Translations under genes and position numbers: made by a program
Part shown: positions 1,431 through 62,979 of the stretch, piece by piece
Position numbering within the stretch: the first letter of the stretch is position 1
Layout: the number at the start of each line of letters is the position of its first letter
Notes under the pieces: model-generated
What the model saw: only the letters and a program-made list of their open reading frames with translations
Told to the model about the DNA's origin: nothing
The model's database searches: none
Assembly: GCA_016934955.1 (NCBI GenBank)
Contig: JAFGRY010000051.1
Coordinates: forward strand, 11,211-75,210
Length of the DNA stretch: 64,000 bases
Origin: a bacterium
Lineage (GTDB): Bacteria; Zhuqueibacterota; QNDG01; JAGLOF01
Direction of reading: 5' to 3'

Positions 1431-1433
1431 ACA

Positions 1434-5322: not shown

Positions 5323-5324
5323 GT

Positions 5325-6446: not shown

Positions 6447-6448
6447 AT

Positions 6449-9579: not shown

Positions 9580-9679
9580 AATTATTTCCTCCTAACCATA
9601 CTTCCGCGAGACCGTCCCCGAATCGTCACTGCCTGAGAAGCAGATCGGGATACACGCGGGCGCCTCGGGGCATGATCCG

Positions 9680-13273: not shown

Positions 13274-13283
13274 GACAACAGAT

Positions 13284-14213: not shown

Positions 14214-14231
14214 GCTTACCTCCCGAGGCAG

Positions 14232-15188: not shown

Positions 15189-15189
15189 A

Positions 15190-16155: not shown

Positions 16156-16158
16156 ACC

Positions 16159-16317
16159 TTAAAAGAGGGTATAAATGAACGGTGCGACAACGCTGCTGCT
16201 GGTAAGAACGATGATCACGCCAAGCAGCACAAGAACGATAATTATCGGTGTCAGCCACCATTTCCTGTTCTCTTTCAGAAATGAAAACAGCTGAATAAGT
16301 ATTTTCCCTTTTGCCAT
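16159..16317 (-). CDS. Small membrane protein, DUF5989 / SxtK-like (52 aa, absent from the ORF track)
   Basis: My translation is MAKGKILIQLFSFLKENRKWWLTPIIIVLVLLGVIIVLTSSSVVAPFIYTLF. It has one TM span and the KWWL...APFIYTLF ends typical of the tiny proteins found beside carbamoyltransferases. It lies 3 nt upstream of the next start. Confidence 0.65.
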   Translation of the reverse strand: MAKGKILIQLFSFLKENRKWWLTPIIIVLVLLGVIIVLTSSSVVAPFIYTLF

Positions 16318-16335
16318 GTGACAGCGCTGCCTCCC

Positions 16336-16773
16336 TTAATACATCTTTTTATAGCGTTCGATCGACCAGGCACTTTCATCCTTCATCACCCAGTGGCTTT
16401 CAGCCTCGGGATCGAGATGTCCCTCGATAGGATTTTTCCCGAACAGCTTCATGACCAGGCCGATCGGCGTTACGATACCGTAGAAAATCACCGCCAGCAG
16501 CACCCGTGAGACGAGCCAGCCCACGGTAAACGCGATACCCATCCAGAACCGGTATACATAGGTGAGCGACCGCGGATAGACCGCTCCCAGCGCCATGAGC
16601 ATGGCGCCGACGCCAAACAGCACGAACCGCCATTCCGAAACGACATGCCTGTATTCCATGTACAGGCCGATCAGCAGAAAAATTCCGCCCACGAACAGCC
16701 CGAATTTCCTCAGGTTTTTCCCGGAAAGATTCAGGTCCTGTATTTCATCTCTGACATCACTAATCCAGCTCAT
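16336..16773 (-). CDS. SxtJ-family small membrane protein
   Basis: 145 aa counted from the ATG at 16773 (MSWISDVRDEIQDL...), with three to four TM spans. It overlaps the carbamoyltransferase stop by 14 nt. The ORF-track start at 16923 would lie inside the carbamoyltransferase gene. Confidence 0.6.
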   Translation of the reverse strand: MSWISDVRDEIQDLNLSGKNLRKFGLFVGGIFLLIGLYMEYRHVVSEWRFVLFGVGAMLMALGAVYPRSLTYVYRFWMGIAFTVGWLVSRVLLAVIFYGIVTPIGLVMKLFGKNPIEGHLDPEAESHWVMKDESAWSIERYKKMY

Positions 16774-18577
16774 ATTCCTGTCTCCAGTCAATTGTGTCGT
16801 GGAATTTCGGTTGATTCTCTTTGTAGAGGATGTAATTGCCCAGCACCAGGACATCCATTTCCGTTCGCATGAAGCAGCGATAGGCATCGAGAGGAGACTG
16901 CACGATCGGTTCACCACGGACATTGAATGATGTGTTGACGATCACCGGACAGCCGGTTTTTTTGTCAAGGGCATCGATCAATGCATGGTACCGCTCATTC
17001 GTCTTTTTACTCACCGATTGAATGCGGGCCGAATAGTCGACATGAGTCACGGCCGGAATCTCGGACCGGACAACGTTGAGTTTGTCGATACCCCAAAGCC
17101 TGTGCTGCGCGTCGGTCATTGCGATCTGCTTATCCTTTTTTACATCCGCAACCAGCAGCATATAGGGACTCGGACGATCGATTTCGAACCAGTCACTGAT
17201 TTTCTCCTCGAGCACCGACGGCGCAAAAGGCCGAAAACTCTCCCTGTACTTGATTTTCAAATTCATTTTTTTCTGAATATTGGGAGATCTGGCATCGCCG
17301 AGAATGGACCTGCTTCCCAGAGCGCGGGGTCCGAATTCCATTCGTCCCTGGAACCAGCCGATCACCTTTTCTTCCGTCATATGATTGACCACCGTGTCGA
17401 CAAGTGGTCCGAACTCCATATAGGTAGCCGGAAGGTCATGTTTCTCGAGAAATTTTCCGATATATTCATTGCTGTAGGCCGGCCCCAGATAGGATCCCTT
17501 CTGTAAATCTTCGCCCTTTTTATCGGGCAGGGGATTCCCGAGAACATGGTGATGGACGATATAGGCGGCACCCAGAGCGCCTCCGGCATCACCGGCAGCA
17601 GGCTGGATCCAGATATCGTCGAACAGCCCGCTGCGGAGCAGTTTGCCGTTCGCGACGCAATTGAGCGCGACACCGCCGGCAAGGCAGAGATTCTTTTCCC
17701 CGGTTTCCTTCTTCACATGCCGGGCCATTCTGTAGACGATCTCTTCCGTCACATCCTGTACCGAGCGGGCGAGATCCATCTCACGCTGCGTCAGGTTTGT
17801 CTCGGATTTGCGCGGAGGGCCGTCGAAGAGATCCGCAAATTTTCTGTTGGTCATGGTCAGGCCGGCGCAATAGTTGAAATAGTCCATATCCATGCGGAAC
17901 GACCCGTCTTCTTTCAGGTCGATGAGATGGTCAAAAATTCTCTGGACATATTTCGGCTCTCCGTAGGGAGCGAGTCCCATGATTTTGTATTCCCCGGAAT
18001 TCACCTTGAATCCGGTAAAATAGGTGAACGCAGAATAGAGAAGCCCGATGGAGTGGGGAAAGTGCAGCTCTGCCTTCAGCGTGACCCGGTTATCCCTGCC
18101 CACGCCCCAGGATGAGGTCGCCCATTCACCCACACCGTCTACTGTGAGAAACGCCGCGCGCTGAAACGGGGAAGGGAAAAAGGCGGCCGCCGCGTGTGAT
18201 TCATGATGCTCGGGAAACAGCACCTCACCGGTAAACCCTGTTTCCTTTTCGATGATATCCGGGATCCACAGTTTCTGCCTGATCCAGAGAGGCATCGCCT
18301 TGATGTAGGAATTGATCCCTTTGGGCACGAATCCGAGATAGGTTTCGAGAATACGTTCAAACTTGATAAACGGTTTATCGTAAAAAGCGACATAATCAAT
18401 ATCGGAAATATCGATTTTCGCCTCCCTGAGACAGTATTTTACCGCCTCGGCGGGAAAATTAAAATCGTGTTTCACTCTCGTGAACCGTTCTTCTTGCGCA
18501 GCCGCAACGATGTCGCCGTCATCCAGAAGACAGGCCGCACTGTCATGATAGAAACATGACAATCCCAAAATTTTCAT
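16760..18577 (-). CDS. Carbamoyltransferase (NodU/CmcH/SxtI family)
   Basis: The N-terminus MKILGLSCFYHDSAACLLDDGDIVAAAQEERFTRVKHD is the family hallmark. The length (605 aa) and C-terminal domain (VNTSFNVRGEPIV) also fit. Confidence 0.9.
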   Translation of the reverse strand: MKILGLSCFYHDSAACLLDDGDIVAAAQEERFTRVKHDFNFPAEAVKYCLREAKIDISDIDYVAFYDKPFIKFERILETYLGFVPKGINSYIKAMPLWIRQKLWIPDIIEKETGFTGEVLFPEHHESHAAAAFFPSPFQRAAFLTVDGVGEWATSSWGVGRDNRVTLKAELHFPHSIGLLYSAFTYFTGFKVNSGEYKIMGLAPYGEPKYVQRIFDHLIDLKEDGSFRMDMDYFNYCAGLTMTNRKFADLFDGPPRKSETNLTQREMDLARSVQDVTEEIVYRMARHVKKETGEKNLCLAGGVALNCVANGKLLRSGLFDDIWIQPAAGDAGGALGAAYIVHHHVLGNPLPDKKGEDLQKGSYLGPAYSNEYIGKFLEKHDLPATYMEFGPLVDTVVNHMTEEKVIGWFQGRMEFGPRALGSRSILGDARSPNIQKKMNLKIKYRESFRPFAPSVLEEKISDWFEIDRPSPYMLLVADVKKDKQIAMTDAQHRLWGIDKLNVVRSEIPAVTHVDYSARIQSVSKKTNERYHALIDALDKKTGCPVIVNTSFNVRGEPIVQSPLDAYRCFMRTEMDVLVLGNYILYKENQPKFHDTIDWRQEYELD

Positions 18578-19149
18578 TTACTTCTCCGCAGAATAGTGGT
18601 ACCATTGCACTTTTTACCAATTCTTCTCACCATCAATCCGGCCGGTATCAGCAGAACGCACTCCCAGATAACCGTCTTCAGATTGTGATAAGAAAAAAGA
18701 CTCGGAATAAACGCCTTCTGAGTCGATGCTTTCATAACATCCATGAATATAGCCGGCCGCCCGATGTAGTAATGATCACTGATAGGCCACAGCAGCTGCA
18801 GGCCGTAGGGGGCACTTCGATCTATGGTGAAAAGATCGATCACCAAGTGAGAAACGACCAGCATGAATGTAAGAAATCCGAGCCGTAAATTCCATTGTTT
18901 TTTTACGATACGCCAGATAGAGACTGCGATCAGCGCGGCCATCACCGCGAACCCGACGCTGTGCGTCCACTGGTGGTGAAACCGGTTCGGGCTTCCCGCC
19001 GCGTATCCGAAGAGAAAATCGATATCAGGCAGATTCGAAAAAACGACGACCGCCGCCGCTGCCGAAAGGCTGATTCTTCTGCGGGTATTCCCGTCCGCTG
19101 CCGCGAGCGCGATATAGCCGGCAATACTGTGTCCGACAGGGGTACTCAA
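18574..19149 (-). CDS. Membrane-bound metal-dependent hydrolase (YdjM/DUF457-like)
   Basis: Motifs PVGHSIAGY, LPDIDFLFGY and HHQWTHS sit in a four- to five-TM protein. It overlaps the downstream carbamoyltransferase by 4 nt. Confidence 0.6.
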   Translation of the reverse strand: MSTPVGHSIAGYIALAAADGNTRRRISLSAAAAVVVFSNLPDIDFLFGYAAGSPNRFHHQWTHSVGFAVMAALIAVSIWRIVKKQWNLRLGFLTFMLVVSHLVIDLFTIDRSAPYGLQLLWPISDHYYIGRPAIFMDVMKASTQKAFIPSLFSYHNLKTVIWECVLLIPAGLMVRRIGKKCNGTTILRRSK

Positions 19150-19162
19150 TACCGTCCGCCTC

Positions 19163-20980
19163 TCATCGCGCTTCTTCTCCCTGCTTCCGAAGCCACAATT
19201 CGAGAATCATCAGGGCCCAGAGCCTGTGGGAATTATTGGTCTCCCTGCGTTCATGTGCACCGATCAGTCTCTGGACCATTTCCGGCTGCACAATTCCCCG
19301 GTTTGTCAGCACCGGTTCAGCGAGCACATCATACATGAAATCCCGGACAGTCCTGTTCTCACGCATCCAGTTCTTCAAAGGGATACTGTGTCCCAACTTA
19401 TCTTTCCGATTGACGACCTCATCAGGAAGCAGCGGTTCAACTGCAATCTTCTCGATATGTTTTACATCGGATATGCCTGGCAGCTTCATATCAGAAGGCA
19501 CCCGGGCGCAGAGTTCAGCCAGTTCGGGATCGAGCATGGGATACCGCGGACGTATCCCGAATTGAACCGCCATGTCGAGTCTTCGCAGGTAAAACTGAAC
19601 AGCGGTCTGATAATCGCTGTACAATGATCTGGCAAGGGGATCATTGGTTTTGATTTCACGATTATACGAAATAAGGTCATTATACAGGCTGTTCCCCGGT
19701 TCAGTGTTGCCCAGAAAATCCGGATGTATCAGCTGGCGGAGATCGGAAGGGTGATAATAGACACGCCATCGGTGCGTTCCCAACACCCTGGGATAACGGT
19801 AACTCTCCGAGAACCGCTTGATCTTGACCGTAAGATCTTTCTTTTTATCCGAATCTTTCAATCTTCTGCCGAGAAACAGCAAGGGCGACAACAGAGGCAT
19901 CGGGATCCAGTCAAGGAAACGGGCGGCTTTATCAGCGGTATAGACCGGATGACCGGCAAATAGTTCATCCCCGCCGTCCCCGGTGAATATTTCATCGACC
20001 GTGCCGGCTGCCGCCCGGGAGAGGAGAAACGTCGCCACATTGATTCCCACATCACAGAAGGGTTCTTCCATGAACCCGGCCATCTCCTCAGCCAGGAGCA
20101 CTTCCTCCGGCCCGTACTCGACCAGTGTGTGGTCTGTATTAAACTCGGTTGCCACCCTCCGGGCGAATGGTGACTCATCGAATGATTCACCCCGGCAGCG
20201 GAACGAATAGGTGTGCATCCCGTTCGCTCCCCCCTTGTGGAGCAGGGACACAATGCTGGAGGAATCGAGACCGCCGCTGAGAAATGCTCCCGCCCGCTTG
20301 CCGGGATTGATTCTCCTGTTGACAGCGGCGGTGAGGCCTTCCCGAATGGCAGCAGCGGTCTCTGCCTCTGAACTGACCGGGCCGTTCTCGAACGTCAGGT
20401 CCCAGTATCGCTGAATGTCAGCTCTACCGTCACGAAAAAGCAATGAATGTGCCGGCCGCAACCTGAAGACCGACGCGTATACGGTCTCGGCCCCCGGATT
20501 GTAATTGAACATCAGATATTTCAAAATCGCTTCTCTGTTAAGCTCAGGGTGGTCTCCGGTAAGACGTGCGGTTGTCAGCAATCTTGATCCAAAGAGGAGA
20601 TTGCCGCCCTTATGCCTGTAATAGAGCAGCCCTGCTCCCATCTTGTCCCGGGCCAGCAGCGTTGTCCGTGTTCGTTCATCCCGTACGACCAGAGAAAAAT
20701 CTCCATTTAAAAGATCGAGAAATCCGTTGCCATCTTTGAGATACATCTCCCAGAGCGTTTTACCACTGTTGCAGGGGCCGCGCCCGCCTGCATCGAAGAT
20801 TCTGCCGCAAACCATCACCATTCCGGCATGGCCGGGAACCTCCCAGAAGAACTGTTCACCACTGATTTCCTCTGTCATCCCGCAATAGAATGCATCGCCG
20901 CTGTACGAGTACAGCAGCGTCTTTGTTATGTCAGCCTCTGCAGCCCCGTGCCGTATATTGCCCGTAACCCCTGAAAACAT
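19163..20980 (-). CDS. Asparagine synthase (AsnB)-family amidotransferase lacking the N-terminal Cys nucleophile
   Basis: The synthetase domain has an intact PP-loop (AFLSGGLDSSSIVS). An Ntn-like N-domain is recognisable (GDFSLVVRD, RDKMGAGLLYY), but the protein begins MFSGVTG instead of MCG. Confidence 0.8.
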   Translation of the reverse strand: MFSGVTGNIRHGAAEADITKTLLYSYSGDAFYCGMTEEISGEQFFWEVPGHAGMVMVCGRIFDAGGRGPCNSGKTLWEMYLKDGNGFLDLLNGDFSLVVRDERTRTTLLARDKMGAGLLYYRHKGGNLLFGSRLLTTARLTGDHPELNREAILKYLMFNYNPGAETVYASVFRLRPAHSLLFRDGRADIQRYWDLTFENGPVSSEAETAAAIREGLTAAVNRRINPGKRAGAFLSGGLDSSSIVSLLHKGGANGMHTYSFRCRGESFDESPFARRVATEFNTDHTLVEYGPEEVLLAEEMAGFMEEPFCDVGINVATFLLSRAAAGTVDEIFTGDGGDELFAGHPVYTADKAARFLDWIPMPLLSPLLFLGRRLKDSDKKKDLTVKIKRFSESYRYPRVLGTHRWRVYYHPSDLRQLIHPDFLGNTEPGNSLYNDLISYNREIKTNDPLARSLYSDYQTAVQFYLRRLDMAVQFGIRPRYPMLDPELAELCARVPSDMKLPGISDVKHIEKIAVEPLLPDEVVNRKDKLGHSIPLKNWMRENRTVRDFMYDVLAEPVLTNRGIVQPEMVQRLIGAHERRETNNSHRLWALMILELWLRKQGEEAR

Positions 20981-21045
20981 CAGGATCCTCCATCAACCAT
21001 CTGCAGCTGAAAGCGGTACGCCGATGCACCACCGCCCGCGCTCCG

Positions 21046-23697
21046 TCACTTCATTTTAACCATTTTGATTGTTTTTATCTCACTTCCGAACATCAATTGG
21101 CCGATATAGATACCGCTCCCCACTTCAGAACCTGCTAAATCGGTTCCATCCCAGCGATACGTATAATTCCCGGCCCCGCTGTGATCACTGCTTACGGAAG
21201 CGACAATTTGCCCCTGGGCATTATAGATATTCAGCACTACATGCCCGGCGGCAGGTATCCGGTAATTGATTGTCGTCACCGGATTGAATGGATTTGGATA
21301 ATTCCTGAAAAGCGTCAGATCGATGTCGTGTTCCTGACCCGTCCCGACTTCCGTGTAGATCGCAGTGTCCTCATAATTGATAATAGTCTCGTTGATTCGG
21401 AAAAAATCCCAATGGATAACCGTTTCGCAGTCCTCTTCTGAAATGGTTCTGAAATAAATCTTGATAAAACTGCTGCTGCTCTGAATCGGTTCCGTGCCGA
21501 AAACAGCTGCTTTCACGCTGCCGTGCTCCTGATCATTGAATACCAGTGAAAAATGATTTGATGTCACGGTTTTCTCGATCCCGAGAAATTCCAGGACCTG
21601 ATCGTCATATGAAAAAACAATGTCAGCTGCCAGCATGGAATAATCGGTTCCTGTCTGTACCGGAATATAAAATGTGTCTGATGCAGCATATGCACCCGTG
21701 GAACCCGTTGCTGCAATCTTGCCAGACTGCGCTGATGCGGACCAGTCCCCATTGACATCACCGATCAGATACGCAGTGTAATCTTCTTGCTCACCAAAGG
21801 GACCACTACTGCTATAAAAACGGGATTCCGGCTCAAAACGCCACTCGCCCGCTTTTGACCCGCCTGTTTTTGCCAACCCTACCGATGCTCGCGCTATCCA
21901 GCTGGCATCGCACATTTCAAGGATACCGTTTTCGTCCGCATCAGCACAGATGAGGGGATACCCTGAAAGTGATTCAAGACCGACAGAATGACGGGCGGCG
22001 AGCGCTGCATCATACGCGGATATCGCTCCTCCGGTGGTTTGGAGATAATCTGACTTCGAGGGACGCACTTCGAAATCACCACCCTCTCTCACGGGAAAGA
22101 GATAAAACCCCGAATTGTCTGTGGTGAGCACAGTGTCACGTGCGGTAATGTGCAGTTGCGCACCTTCGATCTTTTCTCCATTTATATACATACATGTTCC
22201 GGAAACCGGGGGACGTCCCTCTCCAAAATAAATAAATACCCTCCCTGCATCAGACCAGCCGTTAACATCACTGAAGGGTGCTGCGACAGCGAAATCGGGG
22301 CTCCCGTCGCCATTGAGATCGCCAGTACCGGTGACATTATTGCCGAAATGCATCGAATCGGCATCCGTACCCACTTTGGCATCGGGGATCGTGTTCAGGT
22401 TGACATGAATTCCCCAATTGTCGCTTTTACCCCTGATAATATAGGCTTTGCCGTTTCGCAACGTCGGATGGCTGTATGCAAATGCTCCTAACAGAATATC
22501 ATCAAATCCGTCAAAGTCAAAATCACCGATTCCCGAGAACCGGTATCCCGCATGATCTCTGATCTCCTCTCCCACATAAGAGGGGAGACCTCCCGCAGCC
22601 AACGATGACGGGAATGTATCACGACCGAATATAATATATGCAATACCACGGTTATTATCATACATGAAATCGGAAAACATGAAATCACCGAATCCGTCAT
22701 TATTGACATCCCCGACACGCCGTATCATCCACCCGAAAAAACCGGTATTGTATTCCGGAGTGATAATTATATCCGCATTCTCGACATTGTACCCCACTCC
22801 CCAATCCATTTCAGATCTGCCGAAAAACACAAAGATACGATTATTACCGGTGGCGCTGATCGCGAAGTCGGGGATAGTATCACCATTGATGTCTCCGATC
22901 CCGGAGACGCAGTAACCAAGAAATGCATACCAGGAATTGATGGAAAAAATCGCGTCGGCATTGCGCAGATAGAAGGGCGACTCCCAGCCTGTCTCACGCC
23001 CTCTGAGAAAATAAACGCGTCCATGATTATTATCTGTACCGGCTCCCACGTCGTCGTAATATGGTGCACTGATTGCTATCTCGGAACAACCGTCTCCATC
23101 CATATCTCCGATGACCGACACAGACATTCCCGCCAGGCTAAAATTATGCTCGCCTACAAAAATGACATCAGCCGCATTGTTGATGTTTGCATTAAGACCC
23201 CAGTCAATATTCTTGCGCCCGAAGACAAGATACGCATATCCGGGCACGGCAACATCAGGGTGTCCCGCAGGTGCGCCCATCAAGATATCAGAATACCCGT
23301 CTCCATTCACATCTCCGGCATGAACTTCATAGGCCAGGGCCCGCCGTTCACCAGGGCCGATAAAACGGGCATCCACCTGGTCAGTCGACATATCCATTTG
23401 AAACTCTGCTTTTCTTCTTCCGAGAATTAAATGGCATGCTCCCATATCCCAAAACGGAATATTATAATGAAATGTCCCTATAAGGAAATCGTCCAGGCCA
23501 TCGCCGTTAACATCACCGGCGGGTGAAAGTGCATACCCTATCCGCTGTGAAATCGAGGTGCCATGGAAGCTCCCTGTGGGAGAGGGAAAGAGATTTTGTC
23601 CAGACACATCAGCCGGAAAAAAACTGAGCAGCAGCACAGCGCCTCCGGCAAGCCGAAGCGTTGCGGCTATTCGTTCAGTCCACCTGTTGTTCTTCAT
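21046..23697 (-). CDS. Secreted FG-GAP (integrin-alpha-like beta-propeller) protein with dockerin-like and cohesin-like modules and a T9SS C-terminal sorting domain
   Basis: It has a signal peptide and at least 6 FG-GAP repeats (GDVNGDGYSDILMGAP, GDMDGDGCSEIAISAP, GDINGDTIPDFAISA, GDVNNDGFGDFMFSD, GDFDFDGFDDILLGA, GDLNGDGSPDFAVAAP). A dockerin-like segment (DADENGILEMCDASWIARASVGL) and a cohesin-like segment follow. The C-terminus NYPNPFNPVTTINYRIP...GIYIGQL...IKMVKMK is a T9SS type A sorting domain. The start is the ATG at 23697, preceded by GAGGA. Confidence 0.85.
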   Translation of the reverse strand: MKNNRWTERIAATLRLAGGAVLLLSFFPADVSGQNLFPSPTGSFHGTSISQRIGYALSPAGDVNGDGLDDFLIGTFHYNIPFWDMGACHLILGRRKAEFQMDMSTDQVDARFIGPGERRALAYEVHAGDVNGDGYSDILMGAPAGHPDVAVPGYAYLVFGRKNIDWGLNANINNAADVIFVGEHNFSLAGMSVSVIGDMDGDGCSEIAISAPYYDDVGAGTDNNHGRVYFLRGRETGWESPFYLRNADAIFSINSWYAFLGYCVSGIGDINGDTIPDFAISATGNNRIFVFFGRSEMDWGVGYNVENADIIITPEYNTGFFGWMIRRVGDVNNDGFGDFMFSDFMYDNNRGIAYIIFGRDTFPSSLAAGGLPSYVGEEIRDHAGYRFSGIGDFDFDGFDDILLGAFAYSHPTLRNGKAYIIRGKSDNWGIHVNLNTIPDAKVGTDADSMHFGNNVTGTGDLNGDGSPDFAVAAPFSDVNGWSDAGRVFIYFGEGRPPVSGTCMYINGEKIEGAQLHITARDTVLTTDNSGFYLFPVREGGDFEVRPSKSDYLQTTGGAISAYDAALAARHSVGLESLSGYPLICADADENGILEMCDASWIARASVGLAKTGGSKAGEWRFEPESRFYSSSGPFGEQEDYTAYLIGDVNGDWSASAQSGKIAATGSTGAYAASDTFYIPVQTGTDYSMLAADIVFSYDDQVLEFLGIEKTVTSNHFSLVFNDQEHGSVKAAVFGTEPIQSSSSFIKIYFRTISEEDCETVIHWDFFRINETIINYEDTAIYTEVGTGQEHDIDLTLFRNYPNPFNPVTTINYRIPAAGHVVLNIYNAQGQIVASVSSDHSGAGNYTYRWDGTDLAGSEVGSGIYIGQLMFGSEIKTIKMVKMK

Positions 23698-23720
23698 TAA
23701 TCTATCCTCGTAGAGTCTTT

Positions 23721-24725
23721 TTATTTTCTCACTGCCCAATAAATAAAATAATAATGAAAAAGTAATTTTGAACGATAATACTGTTTCCTCGTCCGTGTCA
23801 CCACGAATAGTAAAGCGAATATCACCATTTTAACAACTGCGTTCAGTGATCCGAGCACACGGAATGCCCACTTGTACCAGCGACCATGGTGCTTTTGGAA
23901 AAAATGGCTTCTGGCGGAGACAAACCATTTAAGATCGGTTTTCAGAGGATCGTTTACCTGTCCTATACTTTTTCTTTCGTGATGAATTATCTCCGCCTCG
24001 GGCACGAACCAGGTTTCATACCCAGCCTGCAGAATTCTGTAGCAGAGATCCGGCTCTTCTTCATACATGAACACGCTCTCATCAAAAAGCCCGACGCGAT
24101 CGACAATCTCTTTTCTTGTCAGCATACACTGACCGAGCACATAGTCAACCCGACTTCTCGGAATTACTTCAGAAACCGTAAATCCGCTGTCGCTGTATTC
24201 CGCTTTGGTACGCAACAATCGTTTGGCCACACTGAATATGGAAAGTGCGTCTTTCCAGGAAACATTATTGGTAAAAATAGTCTTCAGGCTCGGGAAATAC
24301 GCCCACGAAACCTGAATAGTACCGTCAGGATGTATGCACTTTGCTCCACAGAGACCAGCCTGTCGCTGTGTATCCATAAATTCCATGAGCCGTTCCACGG
24401 CCTGATCGAGTATTTCAGTGTCTGGATTGAGCAACAGCAGATATTCACCGGTACTGATCTCATATCCCTGATTATTCGCTTTACCAAATCCCACGTTTTC
24501 CCTGTTTTCGATCAGTCGCACTCCCGGAAAATCGGCCTTGACCATTTCAACGCTTTGATCAGCAGAGGCATTGTCAATCACAATAATCTCGAATGACCGG
24601 TGTTGCATCTCAGCGTAGATCGATTCAAGACATTTCCGGAGCAGCTCCCTGGTGTTCCAGTTGACAATGATAATCGATACATCTGTGCTATACTCTTTTC
24701 CCACAGTATTTTCCCGGAATTTCAT
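23721..24725 (-). CDS. Glycosyltransferase family 2
   Basis: It has VSIIIVNWNTRELLRKCLESI, VIDNASAD and a LLLNPDTE DxD-type block. Confidence 0.85.
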   Translation of the reverse strand: MKFRENTVGKEYSTDVSIIIVNWNTRELLRKCLESIYAEMQHRSFEIIVIDNASADQSVEMVKADFPGVRLIENRENVGFGKANNQGYEISTGEYLLLLNPDTEILDQAVERLMEFMDTQRQAGLCGAKCIHPDGTIQVSWAYFPSLKTIFTNNVSWKDALSIFSVAKRLLRTKAEYSDSGFTVSEVIPRSRVDYVLGQCMLTRKEIVDRVGLFDESVFMYEEEPDLCYRILQAGYETWFVPEAEIIHHERKSIGQVNDPLKTDLKWFVSARSHFFQKHHGRWYKWAFRVLGSLNAVVKMVIFALLFVVTRTRKQYYRSKLLFHYYFIYWAVRK

Positions 24726-24727
24726 AC

Positions 24728-25648
24728 TTAGTTATACAGCAGTTCCCGCGCCAGCGACTCCTTACCCGCCAGTCCGTGCAGAACACCCAGAATCTTGCCC
24801 CAAACACCTCTGATATTGCCTTTCGCTCCTTCAACCACCATCGCATATATCATTCCCGCTGATAAAAAGAATACATATTTCAGCCACTGGTACCAGCGGG
24901 CATGTTTCCGCATGAACACGATGGCATTACGGGCTTCAAGATATTTTTTCTTGAATGTGTATGTGCCGACACCCGAGTGAGGTCGGTGCCATACCACCGC
25001 ATCCGGGCAGAACACAACACGCCGGCCGCTTTTTCGTACCATAACCCCGTAATCGACATCTTCATAGCCGTATCCAATGAATGACTCATCGAGCAGTCCT
25101 ATATCTTCCAGAACTTCCCGCTTTATAAGCGTATGGCCCATTCCGAGAAAATCCACATCCATCGAAACCGTGTACCGCCCCTGTTCACGTTCGCCCCTTC
25201 CGTACTGACGCACGATATTTTGTGTAAAGTCTATTTTCGAGCCGCACGAAAGGATCAGATCCCGCTGTTCGAAATCATAAATTTTTGCCCCTGTCATCCC
25301 GATTTCGGGATCAGATTCACAAAGCGTGACCATATGCCTGAGAGCGTCCGGATCAGCGGTCAGATCATCATCAAGCACAAACAGATATTCGGCTCCCATA
25401 GCCAATGCCCTGGCCAGGCCGTAATTCTTCCCTTTGATCGCGCCGTAATTTTTTCCGTTTCTGACAATGGTTACATCGGGGTACTGACGGGCAACCGCTT
25501 CAGCAGTGCCGTCGGACGAGCCATTGTCGACAACGACTATATCGAAGGGTGCGTAATCCAATGCGCGCACAGAATGGATACTTTCAAGCACAATATCCCT
25601 GTTATTCCAGGTGAGAATAACAACGACAACATATGGACGTGGTTTCAT
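24728..25648 (-). CDS. Glycosyltransferase family 2
   Basis: It has VVVILTWNNRDIVLESIHSV, VVDNGSSDGT and VLDDDL. Confidence 0.85.
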   Translation of the reverse strand: MKPRPYVVVVILTWNNRDIVLESIHSVRALDYAPFDIVVVDNGSSDGTAEAVARQYPDVTIVRNGKNYGAIKGKNYGLARALAMGAEYLFVLDDDLTADPDALRHMVTLCESDPEIGMTGAKIYDFEQRDLILSCGSKIDFTQNIVRQYGRGEREQGRYTVSMDVDFLGMGHTLIKREVLEDIGLLDESFIGYGYEDVDYGVMVRKSGRRVVFCPDAVVWHRPHSGVGTYTFKKKYLEARNAIVFMRKHARWYQWLKYVFFLSAGMIYAMVVEGAKGNIRGVWGKILGVLHGLAGKESLARELLYN

Positions 25649-25692
25649 TACAAAACAGTCTCCAATAATACCAATGCCCGGCCTGCGAGCAG

Positions 25693-26778
25693 CTATGTGG
25701 ATCCGGCTCCCATTCTTGTTTTCAGTTTCCTGATGAACGGGCCGGCCATTCCGTCACGTCCGCTCCCGGGCAGTCTCAAGATAAAATCAGCATTTACCCG
25801 TCTCACAGCTGTGAATCCCCAGTGAGGATCCATCGGCGGCGGCACCAGTCCGCAGAACACCCATATGAAACCGGCATCGTGAAGCTGCTGGAAGAGCAGT
25901 CTTCCGAATTGATGCCTGGGACAGGCAAACGCGGTTACTTTCTTGACCGGAAGTTTTTCCTCAATTGCCGCTTTTGAACGGCGGACCTCTCTGCGCAGGC
26001 GCTCCAGCTGCTGTGCCTCCGATTCCAGTACACCGCCCGGGCCATTCCCTGCCTGAAACATACGGGACCGCTTCAGCACCTCTTTTTTCATTCCGGTTCC
26101 GGCTGCTGACAGGCGGGTGCCTTCCTCCCGATACACGTTCTGAAGCCACTCTTCCAGATTACCATTACTGATGAATCTTCGCCTGTCCGAGAGTCCAGAT
26201 GCAAATTCATACACCGGTGTTCCATACGGCGGTCTTTTCACCGGCAGGCCTTCATCAGCGGTAAGAATGGGCACTTCCTTTTTAAACACGTCGGCGATCT
26301 GCGGATCGTATAAATCGACAACCTTTCCCGACACGGGAATATTCGCATGCGAGTAAGAATGCGATTGAAAATCAATGACACCTGACCGCTCCATTTCTTC
26401 AGCCTGTTTCCAGGTTATATATCCCGGCTCATCGATCCAGTATGGGCTGATGAACGCCACAGCCCTGAAACCATATTTCATCAGCAGCGGATACACGATA
26501 GTATAAAGATCACGATACCCGTCATCGAAGGTCAGCAACACATTTTTTTTTGACAGGTCCGCAGCCTCACTAGTATCTGAATCAAGGTCAGCGATAATCG
26601 CTGTTTGATATCCATTGTTTTTCAGATGCGCAAGCTGCCGCGAAAAGACAGCTTTCTCTGTATGATGACAATAAAACACCGGCATCTCCCGACCTGTCCG
26701 GCTTCCGAACACAAACCCGGGATAATATCCCTTGAACGCCGCCTTCAGCATACCGCCCATTTCCAATAAGCCGTTCAC
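25693..26778 (-). CDS. Polysaccharide deacetylase (NodB homology, CE4)
   Basis: It has LLTFDDGYRDLYTIVYPLLMKYGFRAVAFI and the His motif FQSHSYSHANI. Confidence 0.8.
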   Translation of the reverse strand: MNGLLEMGGMLKAAFKGYYPGFVFGSRTGREMPVFYCHHTEKAVFSRQLAHLKNNGYQTAIIADLDSDTSEAADLSKKNVLLTFDDGYRDLYTIVYPLLMKYGFRAVAFISPYWIDEPGYITWKQAEEMERSGVIDFQSHSYSHANIPVSGKVVDLYDPQIADVFKKEVPILTADEGLPVKRPPYGTPVYEFASGLSDRRRFISNGNLEEWLQNVYREEGTRLSAAGTGMKKEVLKRSRMFQAGNGPGGVLESEAQQLERLRREVRRSKAAIEEKLPVKKVTAFACPRHQFGRLLFQQLHDAGFIWVFCGLVPPPMDPHWGFTAVRRVNADFILRLPGSGRDGMAGPFIRKLKTRMGAGST

Positions 26779-28187
26779 TTCTCAGCCCCGCTCTCTTCCT
26801 GGCCGGCCTTATAAAGTTCCTTCCCGCCTGCAGTGATATAATCAGGGACCATATACACTCCGTTTCCAACAGCCTCGGTGATAATCCGCTCAGCATTGGC
26901 AGCTTTCGCTTCTGGATAGTAGAGGCCATGACCCGTCGTCTGCCAGCCTTCCATTTTATCGACCAAGGCCTGACGGTGATTCTGCAGACGCGGTATCACT
27001 CCGCCCAATATAATACAATAAAGGAGTACCGCCGCACCATGAAGCGCGGCACCGAAAAACCGTCCCCTGCGAATCGTGTCAGGCAGGATTTCAATGAACG
27101 CGAATACCGTGCAGATCAATCCCATCACCGGAACAATCCGGTAGCGTGGTTCGATTGCCTGAGCTACGCCGAATCCCGATCGCGTCAGTACTGCTGCCGC
27201 GGCATTCATCACAACAAACAACATGAAATAAAAAACTACAGGATTACGCCTGTCATATCTACGGAAGAGAAGATAGAACCAGAACGCGCCCTCAAGTATC
27301 GACACGATATAGAGCCAGGGTTTGAACGGAAGCCACCCACCCATGAATGAGAGAAAATATTTTACTGCAACTACAGGATGCTGTAACGCATAAATTATCT
27401 CAGGATGTGATTCAGGCTTGTGATAACCGGTAAAATAGAGCGCTGTGGTAACCGAGAATACCGTCAGCACCGCCCAGAAAAACCAGCGGCTGCCACCTGC
27501 AGCCTCCCTGAAAGGCGGAGAAAAAACAATCCAGACAATCAGTATTAAAAATCCGAACCAGCCCGGAGCGCTGGAAATAGTGGCCAGTATCAGGAAAAAG
27601 AGAGCGCTCCCTGCTGATATCGCAGTGCGCCGGTTAAAAAGAATGAAAGAGAGGAGAACGAAAAGTAAAACGAAATAATTCTGCACGGCTCCGGTAGCCC
27701 ATATCATATTGGTCCAGGATGAAGGAAGCATAATCAGGAGAACAAGCGCCGGCATAAAACTGCCGGACAGCCTCCTGCTCTGCAGCAGACCCGCCCACAT
27801 GAGCACAACCGCCACAAGAGCACTGTTCCCGACAGCGATCAGGAACCGGAAATCGACACTTCCCATCAGAGACACCGAAAGATCCGCAGCAAGCCGCGTC
27901 AGCACGATCCTGTGCTCGTTATGGAAGGAAAAAAGATGCTGCAGTTTATCTCCTGGTGCGGCGTTCAGATAGGCGAGGATGGAATCGAAATCATCCCAGG
28001 CGGGGATATTGACCGCGAAACGGTACACCAGATAATAAAACACTGTGATGGTTCCCAGGATCGAGAGCAGCACCGTCCAGTGCGCGAGCCGTCGTTGGGA
28101 TCCGGGACCGGTCCTGCGTAACAAAAGATATAGCAGCACCGGAATGTTCATCAAAATGATTACAATCTGATAGACATTCATGATCAT
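26775..28187 (-). CDS. Polytopic membrane protein (candidate GT-C-like transferase or polymerase)
   Basis: 470 aa with about 12 TM spans and a short C-terminal soluble tail. It overlaps both neighbours by 4 nt. I recognised no family with confidence. Confidence 0.4.
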   Translation of the reverse strand: MIMNVYQIVIILMNIPVLLYLLLRRTGPGSQRRLAHWTVLLSILGTITVFYYLVYRFAVNIPAWDDFDSILAYLNAAPGDKLQHLFSFHNEHRIVLTRLAADLSVSLMGSVDFRFLIAVGNSALVAVVLMWAGLLQSRRLSGSFMPALVLLIMLPSSWTNMIWATGAVQNYFVLLFVLLSFILFNRRTAISAGSALFFLILATISSAPGWFGFLILIVWIVFSPPFREAAGGSRWFFWAVLTVFSVTTALYFTGYHKPESHPEIIYALQHPVVAVKYFLSFMGGWLPFKPWLYIVSILEGAFWFYLLFRRYDRRNPVVFYFMLFVVMNAAAAVLTRSGFGVAQAIEPRYRIVPVMGLICTVFAFIEILPDTIRRGRFFGAALHGAAVLLYCIILGGVIPRLQNHRQALVDKMEGWQTTGHGLYYPEAKAANAERIITEAVGNGVYMVPDYITAGGKELYKAGQEESGAEK

Positions 28188-29191
28188 CCGCCTCCCTGAT
28201 CTCTGCTATCGAGAAGTGAGTCGAGTATTCCCGATTCGACCAGATAGGTGTTATATTGAATCCGCCCCCGTACATTCAGATGGGAGTCATCGACAAACTC
28301 TGTATAATCGTAATACCGCGGCGTGTTGTCGATGACATTAAAATCGAAACTGCCGACGAAGGCATTCCAGCGCCCTTTTGTATAGGTTTCGTAAACAGGC
28401 TCCACCGCTTCATGCAACGGAAGTAGCAGGAATGCTTTCCGGACATGATGTCGCTCGAGAAGATCGATCATTCTTCTGAAATACTGTATTTCCGTTGGAT
28501 CGAGCTCCCGATTTTCCGAGGAGATCTCGGCATCCCAGCGGAAGACCGCCGTCCTGCTGTATATTCTTTCCGGATCTCTCGACCAGATCATAAATCCATG
28601 GTTCTGCCGGTACAGTCTGGAAATTTCCGGCATCGTCTGCATCCCGAAAAACGGAAAGGGTTTATTGAAAACCAGTGTATCTTTGCCAGCGCATGTCAAG
28701 GCCATGCGGTAAAGCGTCTTGCGGTTTCTTTCAAGATTTCTGATAAAATACTCACCCATATAGCCGGTTTCAACCAGATCGAGAAAGCGAAAATGCCGTA
28801 CTGTGGGCAGGCCGAAATGGCCGAAAAGGGTTGGCGGGAAAAATTGTATGCTCGGAACAAAAGAGAGAACGACGATTCCCGGCTTCAGATGATTCTCAAG
28901 ATAATATTTTAAAAGATAATATCCTTCGAGGAACGAAAGACCGCCGCCGCTTATATTCGAATAGGTGAAATGACGATGCTGCTGCAGAATACCCATATCG
29001 ATGCCGCTGATAAGCCGTGAGTCCCCGAGAAATACAATATCATCCGGTGTATGCTTTTCCATTCTCACCTGGTCGAACGCATAATTGAGTGTCAGCCGGA
29101 TAACAGCCTGCTCATTCTCCGGATCAAAATAAACCGAGACCAGGGGAACGGCAAGCAGCGTGATGAGCAGTATTTTCACAAATAATTTCAT
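28184..29191 (-). CDS. SGNH/DUF1574-like periplasmic partner of MBOAT (DltD/AlgX-type role)
   Basis: It has an N-terminal signal anchor, a GDS block (VFLGDSRLISG) and a C-terminal D-x-x-H (DDSHL). It lies immediately downstream of the MBOAT gene. Confidence 0.5.
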   Translation of the reverse strand: MKLFVKILLITLLAVPLVSVYFDPENEQAVIRLTLNYAFDQVRMEKHTPDDIVFLGDSRLISGIDMGILQQHRHFTYSNISGGGLSFLEGYYLLKYYLENHLKPGIVVLSFVPSIQFFPPTLFGHFGLPTVRHFRFLDLVETGYMGEYFIRNLERNRKTLYRMALTCAGKDTLVFNKPFPFFGMQTMPEISRLYRQNHGFMIWSRDPERIYSRTAVFRWDAEISSENRELDPTEIQYFRRMIDLLERHHVRKAFLLLPLHEAVEPVYETYTKGRWNAFVGSFDFNVIDNTPRYYDYTEFVDDSHLNVRGRIQYNTYLVESGILDSLLDSRDQGGG

Positions 29192-29195
29192 ACGA

Positions 29196-30638: not shown

Positions 30639-30687
30639 ATGTCCTTCGCGCACCCGTTTTTATAAGCCCTCTATCGGACCGGGCGTA

Positions 30688-32127: not shown

Positions 32128-32139
32128 TACACTGCATTC

Positions 32140-34907: not shown

Positions 34908-34948
34908 ACAATATCCTGTTTTTTGTTACCTGCCGAACACGTCAGCGT

Positions 34949-36619: not shown

Positions 36620-36649
36620 ATGTCGTGGTCTACCCTTCTCTGGTTGTTC

Positions 36650-39330: not shown

Positions 39331-39331
39331 A

Positions 39332-40543: not shown

Positions 40544-40545
40544 GC

Positions 40546-41991: not shown

Positions 41992-41994
41992 GTA

Positions 41995-42954: not shown

Positions 42955-42962
42955 ATCCCTCC

Positions 42963-45272: not shown

Positions 45273-45294
45273 GCCTTCTCCGATGGTTAGGTGA

Positions 45295-46011: not shown

Positions 46012-46074
46012 CAGCACTCTCCCGATGTGTTTAACCATAACTCTCAATCCGCCAAAAAAAGCAATTACCATACC

Positions 46075-46102
46075 AAAAAAAAACATCCGATCTCCGGATG
46101 TT
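46075..46102 (-). terminator. Rho-independent terminator downstream of the STAS-domain gene
   Basis: The minus strand reads AACATCCG-GAGAT-CGGATGTT followed by a run of T. The plus-strand A-run is 9 nt long (46075-46083). It lies about 120 nt after the stop at 46225 and upstream of the probable wza start. Confidence 0.6.
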
Positions 46103-46224
46103 GCTGTCGCTACTCGAGGCATGTGAGCAAGATATCCATAGATTCATACCGTGCCATCTCCAAAGGACTGGACGACTTCTTTATAAAGGTATCTGATCGT
46201 ACCTGCAAACAGTCTGCTCGATCC

Positions 46225-46920: not shown

Positions 46921-46929
46921 GCAGTATCT

Positions 46930-62945: not shown

Positions 62946-62979
62946 GCGGCTGGTCCGGGGAGGGTGATCATGTTCTCCG

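What the first reader, a model, noticed from the sequence alone, without database searches (positions are those of the whole stretch)
21046..23697. A T9SS cargo protein (FG-GAP propeller + dockerin + cohesin-like + sorting domain) embedded in the glycan operon
Seen in sequence: an 883-aa secreted protein lies between two GT2 genes and an AsnB-like gene, co-directional with them, with gaps of only 23 and 65 nt. It has at least 6 FG-GAP/calcium-binding repeats, a dockerin-like EF-hand pair, a cohesin-like beta domain and a C-terminal NYPNPFNP...KMVKMK T9SS sorting domain. Established knowledge: in Porphyromonas gingivalis, T9SS cargo loses its C-terminal domain and is covalently attached to an anionic LPS, whose synthesis needs WbaP, Wzx, Wzy and glycosyltransferase functions. 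Inference: this locus may encode both a surface protein and the dedicated glycan it is anchored to or glycosylated with. A dockerin and a cohesin-like module in one chain would also allow self-assembly into a surface lattice. No cargo-plus-anchor-glycan operon outside Bacteroidota is known to me.
Basis: partly seen in the sequence, partly recalled or inferred. Interest (0 to 1): 0.65.

Follow-up and report, generated by a model that had tools for sequence, protein, structure and literature searches.

The report
Secreted propeller protein inside a polysaccharide operon
An uncultured KSB1-type bacterium keeps a gene for a secreted, calcium-binding propeller surface protein inside the most variable part of a sugar-coat (exopolysaccharide) operon, which suggests that the protein and the sugar polymer work as a matched pair on the cell surface.

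Summary
An 883-aa minus-strand gene (21046-23697) lies 23 nt after a GT2 gene and 65 nt before an AsnB-like gene. It encodes a signal peptide, a seven-bladed FG-GAP propeller, a small beta-sandwich, a dockerin-like helical module, a cohesin-like beta-sandwich and a T9SS type A sorting domain. The dockerin call is weak for this copy: only one intact calcium loop and no Pfam hit.

It is not a chance insertion. Ten of 13 examined members of this KSB1 (candidate phylum, FCB superphylum) family, counting the target, lie inside the same Wza/Wzc, Wzx-type polysaccharide locus. Only 2 of 79 generic FG-GAP loci from other phyla have any cluster-gene homologue nearby.

In a close relative the flanks are 82-94% identical in protein. 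The central 13 kb (Wzx, GT2s, deacetylase, this gene) is replaced, and the FG-GAP protein is only 33% identical. The gene therefore belongs to the structure-determining cassette.

Best reading: a glycan-matched extracellular partner that binds or tethers the polymer, like Vibrio RbmC/Bap1. T9SS core genes could not be checked.

The parts
21046..23697 (-). Gene for the 883-aa FG-GAP / dockerin-like / cohesin-like / T9SS-CTD protein (stop codon included)
23698..23720 (-). 23-nt gap after the upstream GT2 gene. It holds the GAGGA ribosome-binding site 8 nt before the ATG and has no terminator.
23599..23697 (-). Residues 1-33: Sec signal peptide (basic N-region, hydrophobic helix 6-25, VSG|Q). The cleavage site is inferred by eye.
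22222..23580 (-). Residues ~40-492: seven-bladed FG-GAP (integrin-alpha-type) beta-propeller with a DxNxDGxxD calcium loop in every blade
22027..22206 (-). Residues 498-557: CarboxypepD_reg-like beta-sandwich (weak Pfam hit, confident strands in the model)
21877..22023 (-). Residues 559-607: three-helix dockerin-like module with one intact F-hand loop (DADENGILEMCD at 586). The first half lacks the loop.
21349..21849 (-). Residues 617-783: cohesin-like beta-sandwich, the most variable module of the family (about 20% pairwise identity)
21049..21306 (-). Residues 798-883: T9SS type A C-terminal sorting domain (NYPNPFNP ... GIYIGQL ... KMVKMK)
20290..33182 (-). Variable, lower-GC central cassette of the glycan locus. 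It has no nucleotide similarity to the close relative L094. Contents: GT2 half of the hexapeptide-GT2 gene, Wzx, MBOAT, two unknown ORFs, CE4 deacetylase, two GT2 genes, the FG-GAP gene, and the 5' part of the AsnB-like gene.
6..46122 (-). Whole co-directional polysaccharide locus: Wza, Wzc, epimerase, WbaP-like initiating transferase, GT1, AsnB, methyltransferase, DAO, epimerase ... GT2 x5, PMT_2, flippase, GT1, RmlD, PMT_2, GT1, Wzy_C
7852..19149 (-). Genes that recur downstream of the FG-GAP gene in relatives: YdjM (18574-19149), two ArnC/PgfS/AglJ-like polyprenyl-phosphate sugar synthases (14232-16155) and a PMT_2 GT-C glycosyltransferase (7852-9579). Between them lie genes specific to this genome and L094: carbamoyltransferase, SxtJ and a small DUF5989-like ORF.

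Best explanation
Shown. The gene encodes a Sec- and T9SS-type exported surface protein. From N to C it has a calcium-binding seven-bladed FG-GAP propeller, a small beta-sandwich, a dockerin-like helical module, a hypervariable cohesin-like beta-sandwich and a type A sorting domain. It belongs to a very large paralogous family of the uncultured FCB phylum KSB1/Zhuqueibacterota. This copy and its nearest relatives are a fixed, apparently co-transcribed part of a Wza/Wzc plus Wzx-type heteropolysaccharide locus. They sit in the central cassette that is swapped between close relatives together with the flippase, GT2s and deacetylase.

Inferred. The protein is the extracellular partner matched to the particular polysaccharide its operon makes. 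After export it probably stays at the surface and binds, tethers or cross-links that polymer non-covalently, as the FG-GAP propellers of Vibrio cholerae RbmC/Bap1 do with VPS. The conserved propeller and dockerin-like parts may contact common partners, such as the cohesin-bearing T9SS proteins encoded elsewhere. The hypervariable cohesin-like and sandwich modules are candidates for the structure-specific contact.
For: - Architecture.
- Operon context: RBS and short gaps, no terminator.
- Conserved location: counting the target, 10 of 13 family members examined lie inside the syntenic glycan locus. These are the target plus L001/L002, L003, L004/L005, L010, L011, L012, L092, L093 and L094. The three outside it lie in arrays of T9SS cargo genes.
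- Background: 2 of 79 generic FG-GAP loci from other phyla have any cluster-gene homologue nearby.
- Cassette behaviour, first case: against L094 the flanks are 82-94% identical in protein and about 80% in DNA. Window 20290-33182 has no DNA similarity, and the FG-GAP protein is 33% identical, from another clade and in another position.
- Cassette behaviour, second case: L001/L003 against L004.
- The cassette has lower GC (0.47-0.51 against 0.54-0.58 in the flanks).
- Per-domain divergence: cohesin-like 0.20, propeller 0.46, dockerin-like 0.51.
- Precedent: the FG-GAP propellers of RbmC/Bap1 bind VPS directly, and rbmABC sit beside vps-1 (PMC10102183, PMC11451748, PMC3161981).
Against: - No binding data exist and no carbohydrate-binding family was detected.
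- The propeller's closest solved relatives are integrins, which bind proteins.
- Co-variation with the cassette could reflect joint horizontal transfer, or joint selection on two surface antigens, without physical interaction.
- Family members outside glycan loci show that the fold is not tied to this polymer.
- T9SS core genes were not seen, so even the export route is inferred from the sorting domain alone.
Confidence: 0.42

Rival explanations
1. The protein is a T9SS cargo whose sorting domain is cut off by a PorU-like sortase. Its new C-terminus is then covalently joined to the glycan made by this same operon, giving a dedicated cargo-plus-anchor pair.
For: - Type A sorting domain above the NCBIfam cut-off, and similarity to the PorU sorting domain.
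- Conserved position inside the glycan locus.
- The locus has WbaP-like, Wzx, Wzy_C-family and AsnB-type amidotransferase genes. These are functions that A-LPS synthesis needs in Porphyromonas (own knowledge).
Against: - Wza/Wzc head the locus, the signature of exported EPS or capsule rather than lipid-linked LPS.
- No DegT/WbpE-type aminotransferase or VimA-like gene was found among the window ORFs scanned.
- Many other cargo genes with the same sorting domain lie far from glycan genes, so a general anchor would not be expected to co-vary with one cargo.
- No PorU, PorV or PorZ gene was seen. They could not be searched for.
Confidence: 0.15
2. The protein is a glycoprotein substrate. The conserved ArnC/PgfS/AglJ-like polyprenyl-phosphate sugar synthases and the PMT_2 (GT-C) transferases next to it glycosylate it in the periplasm before T9SS export. 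The 'glycan operon' would then be partly a protein-glycosylation operon.
For: - Two full-length ArnC-like GT2 genes (209 and 112 bits to the ArnC model) also hit PgfS (adhesin glycosylation) and AglJ (S-layer glycosylation).
- PMT_2 genes recur downstream of the FG-GAP gene in most of the relatives' loci that extend far enough to show them.
Against: - The same enzyme pair commonly decorates polysaccharides or lipid A.
- The ArnC-like genes are in the conserved flank (59-65% identity across distant relatives), not in the cassette that co-varies with the protein.
- No glycosylation sequon is known for this phylum.
- All NCBIfam scores are far below the equivalog cut-offs.
Confidence: 0.15
3. The propeller is an enzyme (lyase, hydrolase or epimerase) that trims, releases or remodels the nascent polymer. 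It would be comparable to the glycanases encoded in other EPS loci (ExoK/ExsH, PslG, AlgL; own knowledge).
For: - Beta-propeller polysaccharide lyases exist (PL11, PL24, PL25; own knowledge).
- R52, Y55 and H77 are invariant in 84 sequences.
- A structure-specific enzyme would be expected to co-vary with the glycan cassette.
Against: - No catalytic family was hit in Pfam, NCBIfam or PDB.
- The invariant R/Y/H residues fall on the FG and GAP motif positions of blade 1, so they are probably structural (inference).
- The top 50 structural matches are all integrins.
Confidence: 0.1
4. There is no direct functional link. A fast-evolving surface antigen gene simply travels with the glycan cassette, because both are under the same diversifying pressure from phages and grazers and are exchanged as one block.
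For: - Low identity of the protein between relatives (33-41%) and lower GC of the cassette.
- Tandem duplications of the gene inside the locus in L092 and L093.
Against: - The gene is retained in every one of the ten loci, across divergence down to 35-65% identity of cluster enzymes. This holds in two different positions and three clades.
- It has operon-like spacing and its own RBS.
Confidence: 0.1

Closest known systems
Vibrio cholerae biofilm matrix adhesins RbmC and Bap1
   Same: Both are secreted proteins built around a calcium-associated FG-GAP beta-propeller and are encoded beside or within the exopolysaccharide genes (rbmABC next to vps-1). The propeller binds the cognate polysaccharide directly and acts as 'double-sided tape' (PMC10102183, PMC11451748, PMC3161981).
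   Different: - Eight blades there, seven here.
- A beta-prism lectin domain there, against dockerin-like, cohesin-like and sorting domains here.
- Export through a different secretion system in Vibrio (type II, own knowledge), against a T9SS sorting domain here.
- No detectable orthology was tested.
- Here the gene lies inside the variable cassette itself.
T9SS type A cargo of Bacteroidota (for example P. gingivalis gingipains anchored to A-LPS)
   Same: Both have a Sec signal peptide plus a C-terminal Ig-like sorting domain matching TIGR04183. The sorting domain resembles that of PorU.
   Different: - The host is KSB1, not Bacteroidota.
- The sorting domain is of the FlgD_ig-like flavour.
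- Neither the attachment machinery nor the A-LPS-type pathway could be shown.
- The adjacent glycan locus is of the Wza/Wzc EPS type.
Integrin alpha-subunit head (FG-GAP beta-propeller)
   Same: Seven FG-GAP blades with DxNxDGxxD calcium loops. It is the best sequence and fold match in the PDB (E 3e-24 and 7e-24).
   Different: All seven blades carry the calcium loop here, against three or four blades in integrins (own knowledge). There is no beta-subunit partner and the organism is bacterial.
Cellulosomal and non-cellulosomal cohesin-dockerin modules
   Same: The cohesin fold is confirmed by Foldseek (1g1k, 1anu, 2w1n). The family profile matches type I dockerins.
   Different: - Both modules are in one chain.
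- This copy has a single F-hand loop and no Pfam dockerin hit.
- The cohesin score is below the Pfam cut-off.
- There are no glycoside hydrolases, and attachment would be via T9SS rather than SLH or sortase.
PEP-CTERM/exosortase systems (EPS-locus-associated protein sorting)
   Same: The concept of a dedicated protein-sorting signal whose cargo is genomically tied to EPS loci is shared. The AsnB here is closest to the XrtA/PEP-CTERM system amidotransferase model (666 bits, below the 817 cut-off). Wzc and Wza also hit XrtA-associated models.
   Different: There is no PEP-CTERM motif and no exosortase gene in the window. The sorting signal is a T9SS domain.

Membership tests
T9SS type A cargo | C-terminal sorting domain matching TIGR04183 above its cut-off | tested here: met
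   37 bits against a cut-off of 23, residues 800-881. 12 of 12 family members hit Por_Secre_tail. The fold matches the PorU sorting domain.
T9SS type A cargo | N-terminal Sec signal peptide | tested here: met
   Basic N-region, hydrophobic helix at residues 6-25, VSG|Q. Judged by eye; no dedicated predictor was available.
T9SS type A cargo | Genome encodes the T9SS core (SprA/Sov, PorV, PorK/L/M/N, PorU) | not testable with these tools
   None of these families is among about 50 window ORFs or in the gene tables of the 16 contexts fetched with the look-up of encoding contigs. Whole genomes could not be searched. No statement on T9SS appears in the two KSB1 papers. T9SS is reported in other FCB phyla (PMC11285876).
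T9SS type A cargo | Sorting domain removed and protein secreted or attached | not testable with these tools
   Needs proteomics.
FG-GAP / integrin-alpha-type beta-propeller | Repeated FG-GAP units with calcium loops folding into a seven-bladed propeller | tested here: met
   Pfam E 4e-31 with 6 stretches. 7 loops. Model pLDDT 90. Integrin alpha at E 1e-23.
Dockerin (type I) | Pfam Dockerin_1 match in this protein | tested here: not met
   No hit at E<=1. However, 10 of 12 relatives match (best 1e-7), and the family profile hits 1ohz_B at 2e-4.
Dockerin (type I) | Two tandem F-hand calcium-binding loops | tested here: not met
   Only one loop (residues 586-597). The first segment keeps the helix (YDAALAAR) but has no loop, both here and in the family consensus.
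Cohesin | Pfam Cohesin at or above the gathering score | tested here: not met
   20.8-22.7 bits against 24.1.
Cohesin | Cohesin beta-sandwich fold | tested here: met
   Foldseek: 2w1n E 1e-10; 1g1k TM 0.63, rmsd 3.1 A; 1anu; 1ohz_A.
P. gingivalis-type cargo/A-LPS anchoring system | Attachment complex PorU/PorV/PorZ/PorQ | not testable with these tools
   Not in the window. Genomes are not searchable here.
P. gingivalis-type cargo/A-LPS anchoring system | Wbp/Vim pathway genes for the linking sugar (aminotransferase, VimA-type acyltransferase) | tested here: not met
   No DegT-type aminotransferase or VimA-like family was found among the minus-strand ORFs of 150 aa or more in the window. AsnB-type amidotransferases and a hexapeptide acetyltransferase are present.
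P. gingivalis-type cargo/A-LPS anchoring system | Glycan is lipid A-linked (WaaL ligase route) rather than exported as free polymer | tested here: inconclusive
   A Wzy_C-family protein is present, but ligase and polymerase cannot be told apart. Wza and a Wzc tyrosine autokinase (TIGR01007 above cut-off) point to EPS or capsule export.
RbmC/Bap1-type EPS-binding matrix adhesins | FG-GAP propeller protein encoded with the EPS genes | tested here: met
RbmC/Bap1-type EPS-binding matrix adhesins | Beta-prism lectin domain and eight blades | tested here: not met
   No such Pfam hit; seven blades.
RbmC/Bap1-type EPS-binding matrix adhesins | Direct binding of the cognate polysaccharide | not testable with these tools
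   Needs biochemistry.

The most novel reading that the evidence does not exclude
KSB1 bacteria build a serotype-like surface coat in which each polysaccharide variant comes with its own co-evolving T9SS-exported FG-GAP protein. The protein is either covalently attached to that glycan by a T9SS sortase, or acts as the structure-specific anchor that holds the capsule on the cell. This would be a matched protein-glycan coat module encoded in one swappable cassette, and the first cargo-plus-cognate-glycan operon outside Bacteroidota.
Probability: 0.12. Interest if true: 0.75.

Novelty: new variant of a known kind. Interest (0 to 1): 0.45.

Why it matters
Polysaccharide loci are normally read as enzyme-and-transporter operons. 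A secreted structural protein that is always present in the variable, structure-determining cassette would mean the coat of these uncultured bacteria is specified as a protein-glycan pair. It would extend the 'matrix adhesin next to its exopolysaccharide' principle, so far worked out mainly in Vibrio, to a distant phylum and to the T9SS. It also gives a concrete handle, cassette alleles against glycan genes, for testing how T9SS cargo and surface glycans are coupled outside Bacteroidota. In the KSB1 papers I searched, neither the protein family nor T9SS is mentioned.

Tried and rejected
- The genome-contig scan with the subfamily alignment was swamped by generic FG-GAP patterns. It returned 79 distinct loci from many phyla and no KSB1. 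It served only as a background control.
- Foldseek against viral structures was uninformative.
- Paper searches for T9SS in KSB1 found nothing: KSB1 with type IX secretion, T9SS or gliding, other candidate FCB phyla, and the supplements of the Zhuqueibacterota paper.
- The PurH search for taxonomy gave truncated names without organisms. The GlgA search gave KSB1 names, but only at 38-39% identity, so the placement is 'KSB1-affiliated' and no finer.
- An enzyme role was considered because R52, Y55 and H77 are invariant. They sit on the FG and GAP motif positions, and no catalytic family matches, so this was down-weighted.
- The longer TTG start at 23739 was rejected. It overlaps the GT2 gene and has no RBS, whereas the ATG at 23697 has GAGGA.
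Whether the dockerin-like helices pack on the cohesin-like domain in cis is therefore unknown.
Full report
**1. The observation**

The window has a minus-strand ORF at 21046..23739 (TTG). The ATG is preceded by GAGGA at a distance of 8 nt. The TTG start would overlap the upstream gene, so I accept 23697.

The upstream GT2 gene (23721-24725) ends 23 nt before the ATG, and a second GT2 gene lies at 24728-25648. The AsnB-like gene (19163-20980) starts 65 nt after the stop and has its own GGAGGA. No terminator-like hairpin lies in either gap.

**2. Domain anatomy**

- *Pfam and NCBIfam.* Pfam gives FG-GAP at E 4e-31 in six stretches and FlgD_ig above its threshold. Cohesin (20.8 bits against 24.1), Por_Secre_tail (20.8 against 27) and CarboxypepD_reg (20 against 32) fall below their thresholds. 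No dockerin hit appears even at E<=1. NCBIfam TIGR04183, the T9SS type A sorting domain, scores 37 bits against a cut-off of 23. Weak hits to PorU, PorZ and T9SS-dependent peptidases cover only their sorting domains.
- *Calcium loops.* The sequence has seven DxNxDGxxD loops at residues 62, 129, 198, 269, 330, 392 and 460. One further F-hand-type loop lies at residue 586.
- *Full-length model.* An AlphaFold2 model built on 84 homologues has pLDDT 90 and pTM 0.74. It shows a signal-peptide helix (6-25), a propeller (about 40-492), a small beta-sandwich (498-557), three helices (561-605), a large beta-sandwich (619-782) and a terminal beta-sandwich (800-881).
- *Propeller.* The nearest solved structures are integrin alpha heads, both by profile (E 3e-24) and by fold (E 7e-24).
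- *C-terminal half.* A separate model of this half (pLDDT 88.5) matches cohesins: 2w1n at E 1e-10, 1g1k at TM 0.63 and rmsd 3.1 A, plus 1anu and 1ohz_A. It also matches the sorting domain of PorU.
- *Family level.* Among 12 C-terminal halves, 12 hit FlgD_ig and Por_Secre_tail, 10 hit Dockerin_1 (best 1e-7) and 3 hit Cohesin (best 4e-9). The target is one of the two without a dockerin hit. The profile of these halves hits solved dockerins (1ohz_B, 2e-4), the PorU sorting domain (4.5e-3) and a cohesin (3ul4_A, 0.027).

There are seven blades, not six. There is an extra CarboxypepD_reg-like sandwich. The dockerin is only 'dockerin-like': one intact loop, in this copy and in the family consensus.

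**3. The locus**

Almost every long ORF in the window is on the minus strand. Scans of about 50 of them give the following order, upstream to downstream:

- Housekeeping genes, including FtsY, MiaB-type, PurN, PurH and Lgt.
- glgA and a STAS protein.
- Wza, then Wzc (tyrosine autokinase, TIGR01007 above cut-off), an epimerase, and a WbaP-like initiating transferase (TIGR03025 above cut-off).
- GT1, AsnB (closest to the XrtA/PEP-CTERM amidotransferase model), a methyltransferase, a DAO oxidoreductase and an epimerase.
- A hexapeptide acetyltransferase fused to GT2, Wzx, MBOAT, two unknown ORFs, a CE4 deacetylase and two GT2 genes.
- The FG-GAP gene.
- An AsnB-like gene, YdjM, carbamoyltransferase and SxtJ.
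- Five GT2 genes, two of them ArnC/PgfS/AglJ-like polyprenyl-phosphate sugar synthases.
- An unknown 534-aa ORF, PMT_2, a flippase, GT1, RmlD, PMT_2, GT1 and Wzy_C.

This is a Wzx-type heteropolysaccharide locus with Wza/Wzc export. The Wzy_C-family protein may be its polymerase. The target is the only ORF in the window with a T9SS sorting-domain motif. No T9SS core family was found.

**4. Whose genome**

The target has more than 6000 homologues of the same length and architecture. The named ones are candidate division KSB1 / Ca. Zhuqueibacterota. The nearest non-self hit is only 41% identical. GlgA from the window also finds only KSB1 or unclassified 'bacterium' names. KSB1 is a phylum of the FCB superphylum (PMC11683472). 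The organism is therefore a KSB1-affiliated, uncultured, non-Bacteroidota FCB bacterium. T9SS is reported as probably present in several other FCB phyla (PMC11285876). I found no statement for KSB1.

**5. Is the gene a chance insertion? No.**

A neighbour-joining tree of 120 family members puts the target with P0002-P0005 and P0009, next to a sister clade (P0006, P0020, P0025, P0026 and others).

I looked up the genomic context of 12 homologues:

- All five members of the target's clade lie inside a syntenic glycan locus (L001/L002, L003, L004/L005, L010, L011).
- Three members of the sister clade do too (L012, L092, L093).
- So does P0097 from a third clade (L094).
- The recurring gene set is AsnB, CE4 deacetylase, a GT2, one to three FG-GAP genes, YdjM, the two ArnC-like GT2 genes and PMT_2. 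Short contigs show only part of it.
- Three members of other clades (L006, L007, L008) instead sit in tandem arrays of genes for cohesin, FG-GAP and sorting-domain proteins, without glycan genes.

As a background, only 2 of 79 generic FG-GAP loci from other phyla had any homologue of a cluster gene within 10 kb.

The syntenic loci come from quite distant relatives. Cluster enzymes are 35-66% identical to those of the window. The association is therefore old.

**6. The gene lies in the variable cassette**

A much closer relative has PurH 86% and GlgA 84% identical, on a 45.6-kb contig (L094). It carries the same locus.

- *Flanks.* Flanking proteins are 82-94% identical: WbaP 93, AsnB 87, methyltransferase 89, DAO 86, epimerase 90, carbamoyltransferase 94. 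The DNA aligns at about 80% over window 42585-33182 and 20290-16576.
- *Centre.* Between 20290 and 33182 there is no DNA similarity (only one 180-bp match at 71%). Wzx is 26% identical, the deacetylase 33% and the GT2 genes 29-43%. MBOAT and the two unknown ORFs are absent.
- *The FG-GAP gene.* It is 33% identical, belongs to another clade, and sits before rather than after the GT2-deacetylase-GT2 block.
- *Composition.* The same interval has lower GC (0.47-0.51) than the flanks (0.54-0.58).
- *Second case.* L001 and L003 against L004 have flanks at 71-77% DNA identity, while the deacetylase-GT2-FG-GAP block does not align.

This is the classic layout of O-antigen and capsule loci, with conserved flanks and a swapped structure-determining centre. 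Here an exported protein gene is a constant member of that centre.

Within the protein, the cohesin-like module is the most divergent (mean pairwise identity 0.20). The propeller (0.46) and the dockerin-like helices (0.51) are the most conserved.

**7. Mechanism**

*Shown:*
- Export signals are present.
- The fold set is as described in section 2.
- The spacing is operon-like.
- The gene's membership of the glycan locus is conserved.
- The gene co-varies with the glycan-specific genes.

*Inferred:*
- The protein acts outside the cell on, or with, the polymer that its cassette specifies.
- The best precedent is Vibrio cholerae RbmC/Bap1. These are secreted proteins with FG-GAP propellers that bind VPS directly, and the rbmABC genes lie beside vps-1 (PMC10102183, PMC11451748, PMC3161981).
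- I therefore favour a non-covalent binder or tether of the cognate polysaccharide. The dockerin-like and cohesin-like modules would link it to other T9SS surface proteins, which in KSB1 include many cohesin-bearing cargo.
- My confidence in this specific function is about 0.4.

**8.

Covalent attachment of the cargo to this operon's glycan is not excluded, but it is not favoured, for three reasons:

- Wza/Wzc indicate export of a free or capsular polymer.
- No Wbp/Vim-type aminotransferase was found.
- Numerous cargo genes with the same sorting domain lie far from glycan genes, so a shared anchor glycan would not be expected to co-vary with one cargo.

Other rivals are as follows:

- *Glycoprotein substrate.* The protein could be glycosylated by the ArnC-like GT2 plus PMT_2 (GT-C) pair. 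Against this, those genes lie in the conserved flank.
- *Polymer-processing enzyme.* No catalytic family matches, and the invariant R52, Y55 and H77 fall on FG and GAP motif positions.
- *Hitch-hiking surface antigen.* This is hard to square with retention in ten of ten glycan loci, in two positions and three clades.

**9. Novelty and limits**

Each domain and the sorting signal are known kinds. EPS-locus-encoded matrix proteins are also known. The new points are:

- the combination of these parts;
- the host phylum;
- the constant presence of an exported FG-GAP protein inside the swappable cassette of a polysaccharide locus.

I rate it a new variant of a known kind, of moderate interest.

The main gaps are:

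- T9SS core genes could not be searched in any KSB1 genome.
- There are no binding or proteomic data.
- Only 13 family members, counting the target, were placed in context.

Noticed in passing
window 20290-33182: This is the central, lower-GC block of the glycan locus. It has no DNA similarity to the otherwise roughly 80%-identical locus of a close relative (L094). The left boundary falls inside the AsnB-like gene. The right boundary falls inside the hexapeptide-GT2 fusion gene, whose GT2 half is missing from the relative's 424-aa gene.
   Followed up: partly
window 16159-16317 (-), with 16336-16923 and 16760-18577: A 52-aa hydrophobic ORF follows SxtJ and the carbamoyltransferase, giving the same trio (carbamoyltransferase, SxtJ, DUF5989) annotated in L007. 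In L007 the trio sits directly upstream of two FG-GAP paralogues that are outside any glycan locus. The carbamoyltransferase is 77% identical to L007's and 94% to L094's.
   Followed up: partly
window 19163-20980 (-): The AsnB-like protein next to the target starts MFSGVTGN, without the N-terminal Cys nucleophile, and keeps only a fragment of the glutaminase domain (Pfam GATase_7 residues 77-134). It may be ammonia-dependent or have another adenylating role. The second AsnB (37444-39330) is complete and closest to the XrtA/PEP-CTERM amidotransferase model (666 bits, below the 817 cut-off).
   Followed up: no
window 14232-16155 (-), 7852-9579 (-), 2690-4432 (-): Two ArnC/PgfS/AglJ-like polyprenyl-phosphate sugar synthases and two PMT_2 (GT-C) genes are present. 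Together they form a periplasmic, lipid-carrier-dependent glycosylation module. The ArnC-like pair is 59-65% identical even in distant relatives. The acceptor (polymer, lipid or protein) is unknown.
   Followed up: partly
L006 10001-22664, L008 10001-22643, L007 641-15284: KSB1 contigs carry tandem arrays of genes for T9SS-sorting-domain proteins built from FG-GAP propellers and cohesin modules, including short cohesin-only proteins. Next to them are giant GDSL-lipase/fn3/Big proteins of more than 2600 aa. This suggests a large cohesin-dockerin-type surface assembly system in this phylum.
   Followed up: no
L092 3546-12607, L093 6187-10880: In two relatives the FG-GAP gene inside the glycan locus is duplicated or triplicated in tandem. 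One copy is a 1196-aa variant with HYDIN/ASH-type Ig domains, and another is a 661-aa copy with no sorting-domain family in its precomputed Pfam list.
   Followed up: no
window 46225-48414 (-): glgA and a STAS-domain gene sit just upstream of Wza. GlgA homologues lie on contigs of the same length as those carrying the FG-GAP glycan loci of relatives (44220, 47078, 92537, 93156 and 45581 bp), so they are probably the same contigs. The neighbourhood therefore looks conserved across the lineage.
   Followed up: partly
window 52605-53891 (-) and 62460-63095 (-): A GWxTD-domain protein (TIGR04514, 129 bits) and a DUF5683 protein lie among housekeeping genes upstream of the locus. Both families have unknown function.
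   Followed up: no
L013, L021, L077, L087: The degenerate-pattern scan also picked up FG-GAP propellers of similar length in Thermoplasmatota and other archaeal MAGs (up to 35% identity over about 460 residues). The calcium-loop propeller is therefore shared across domains.
   Followed up: no
window 9680-11284, 26775-28187, 28184-29191 (-): Three ORFs of 534, 470 and 335 aa inside the locus have no Pfam or NCBIfam match. Two of them are in the variable cassette and are absent from L094. They are candidates for a polymerase or other structure-specific functions.
   Followed up: no
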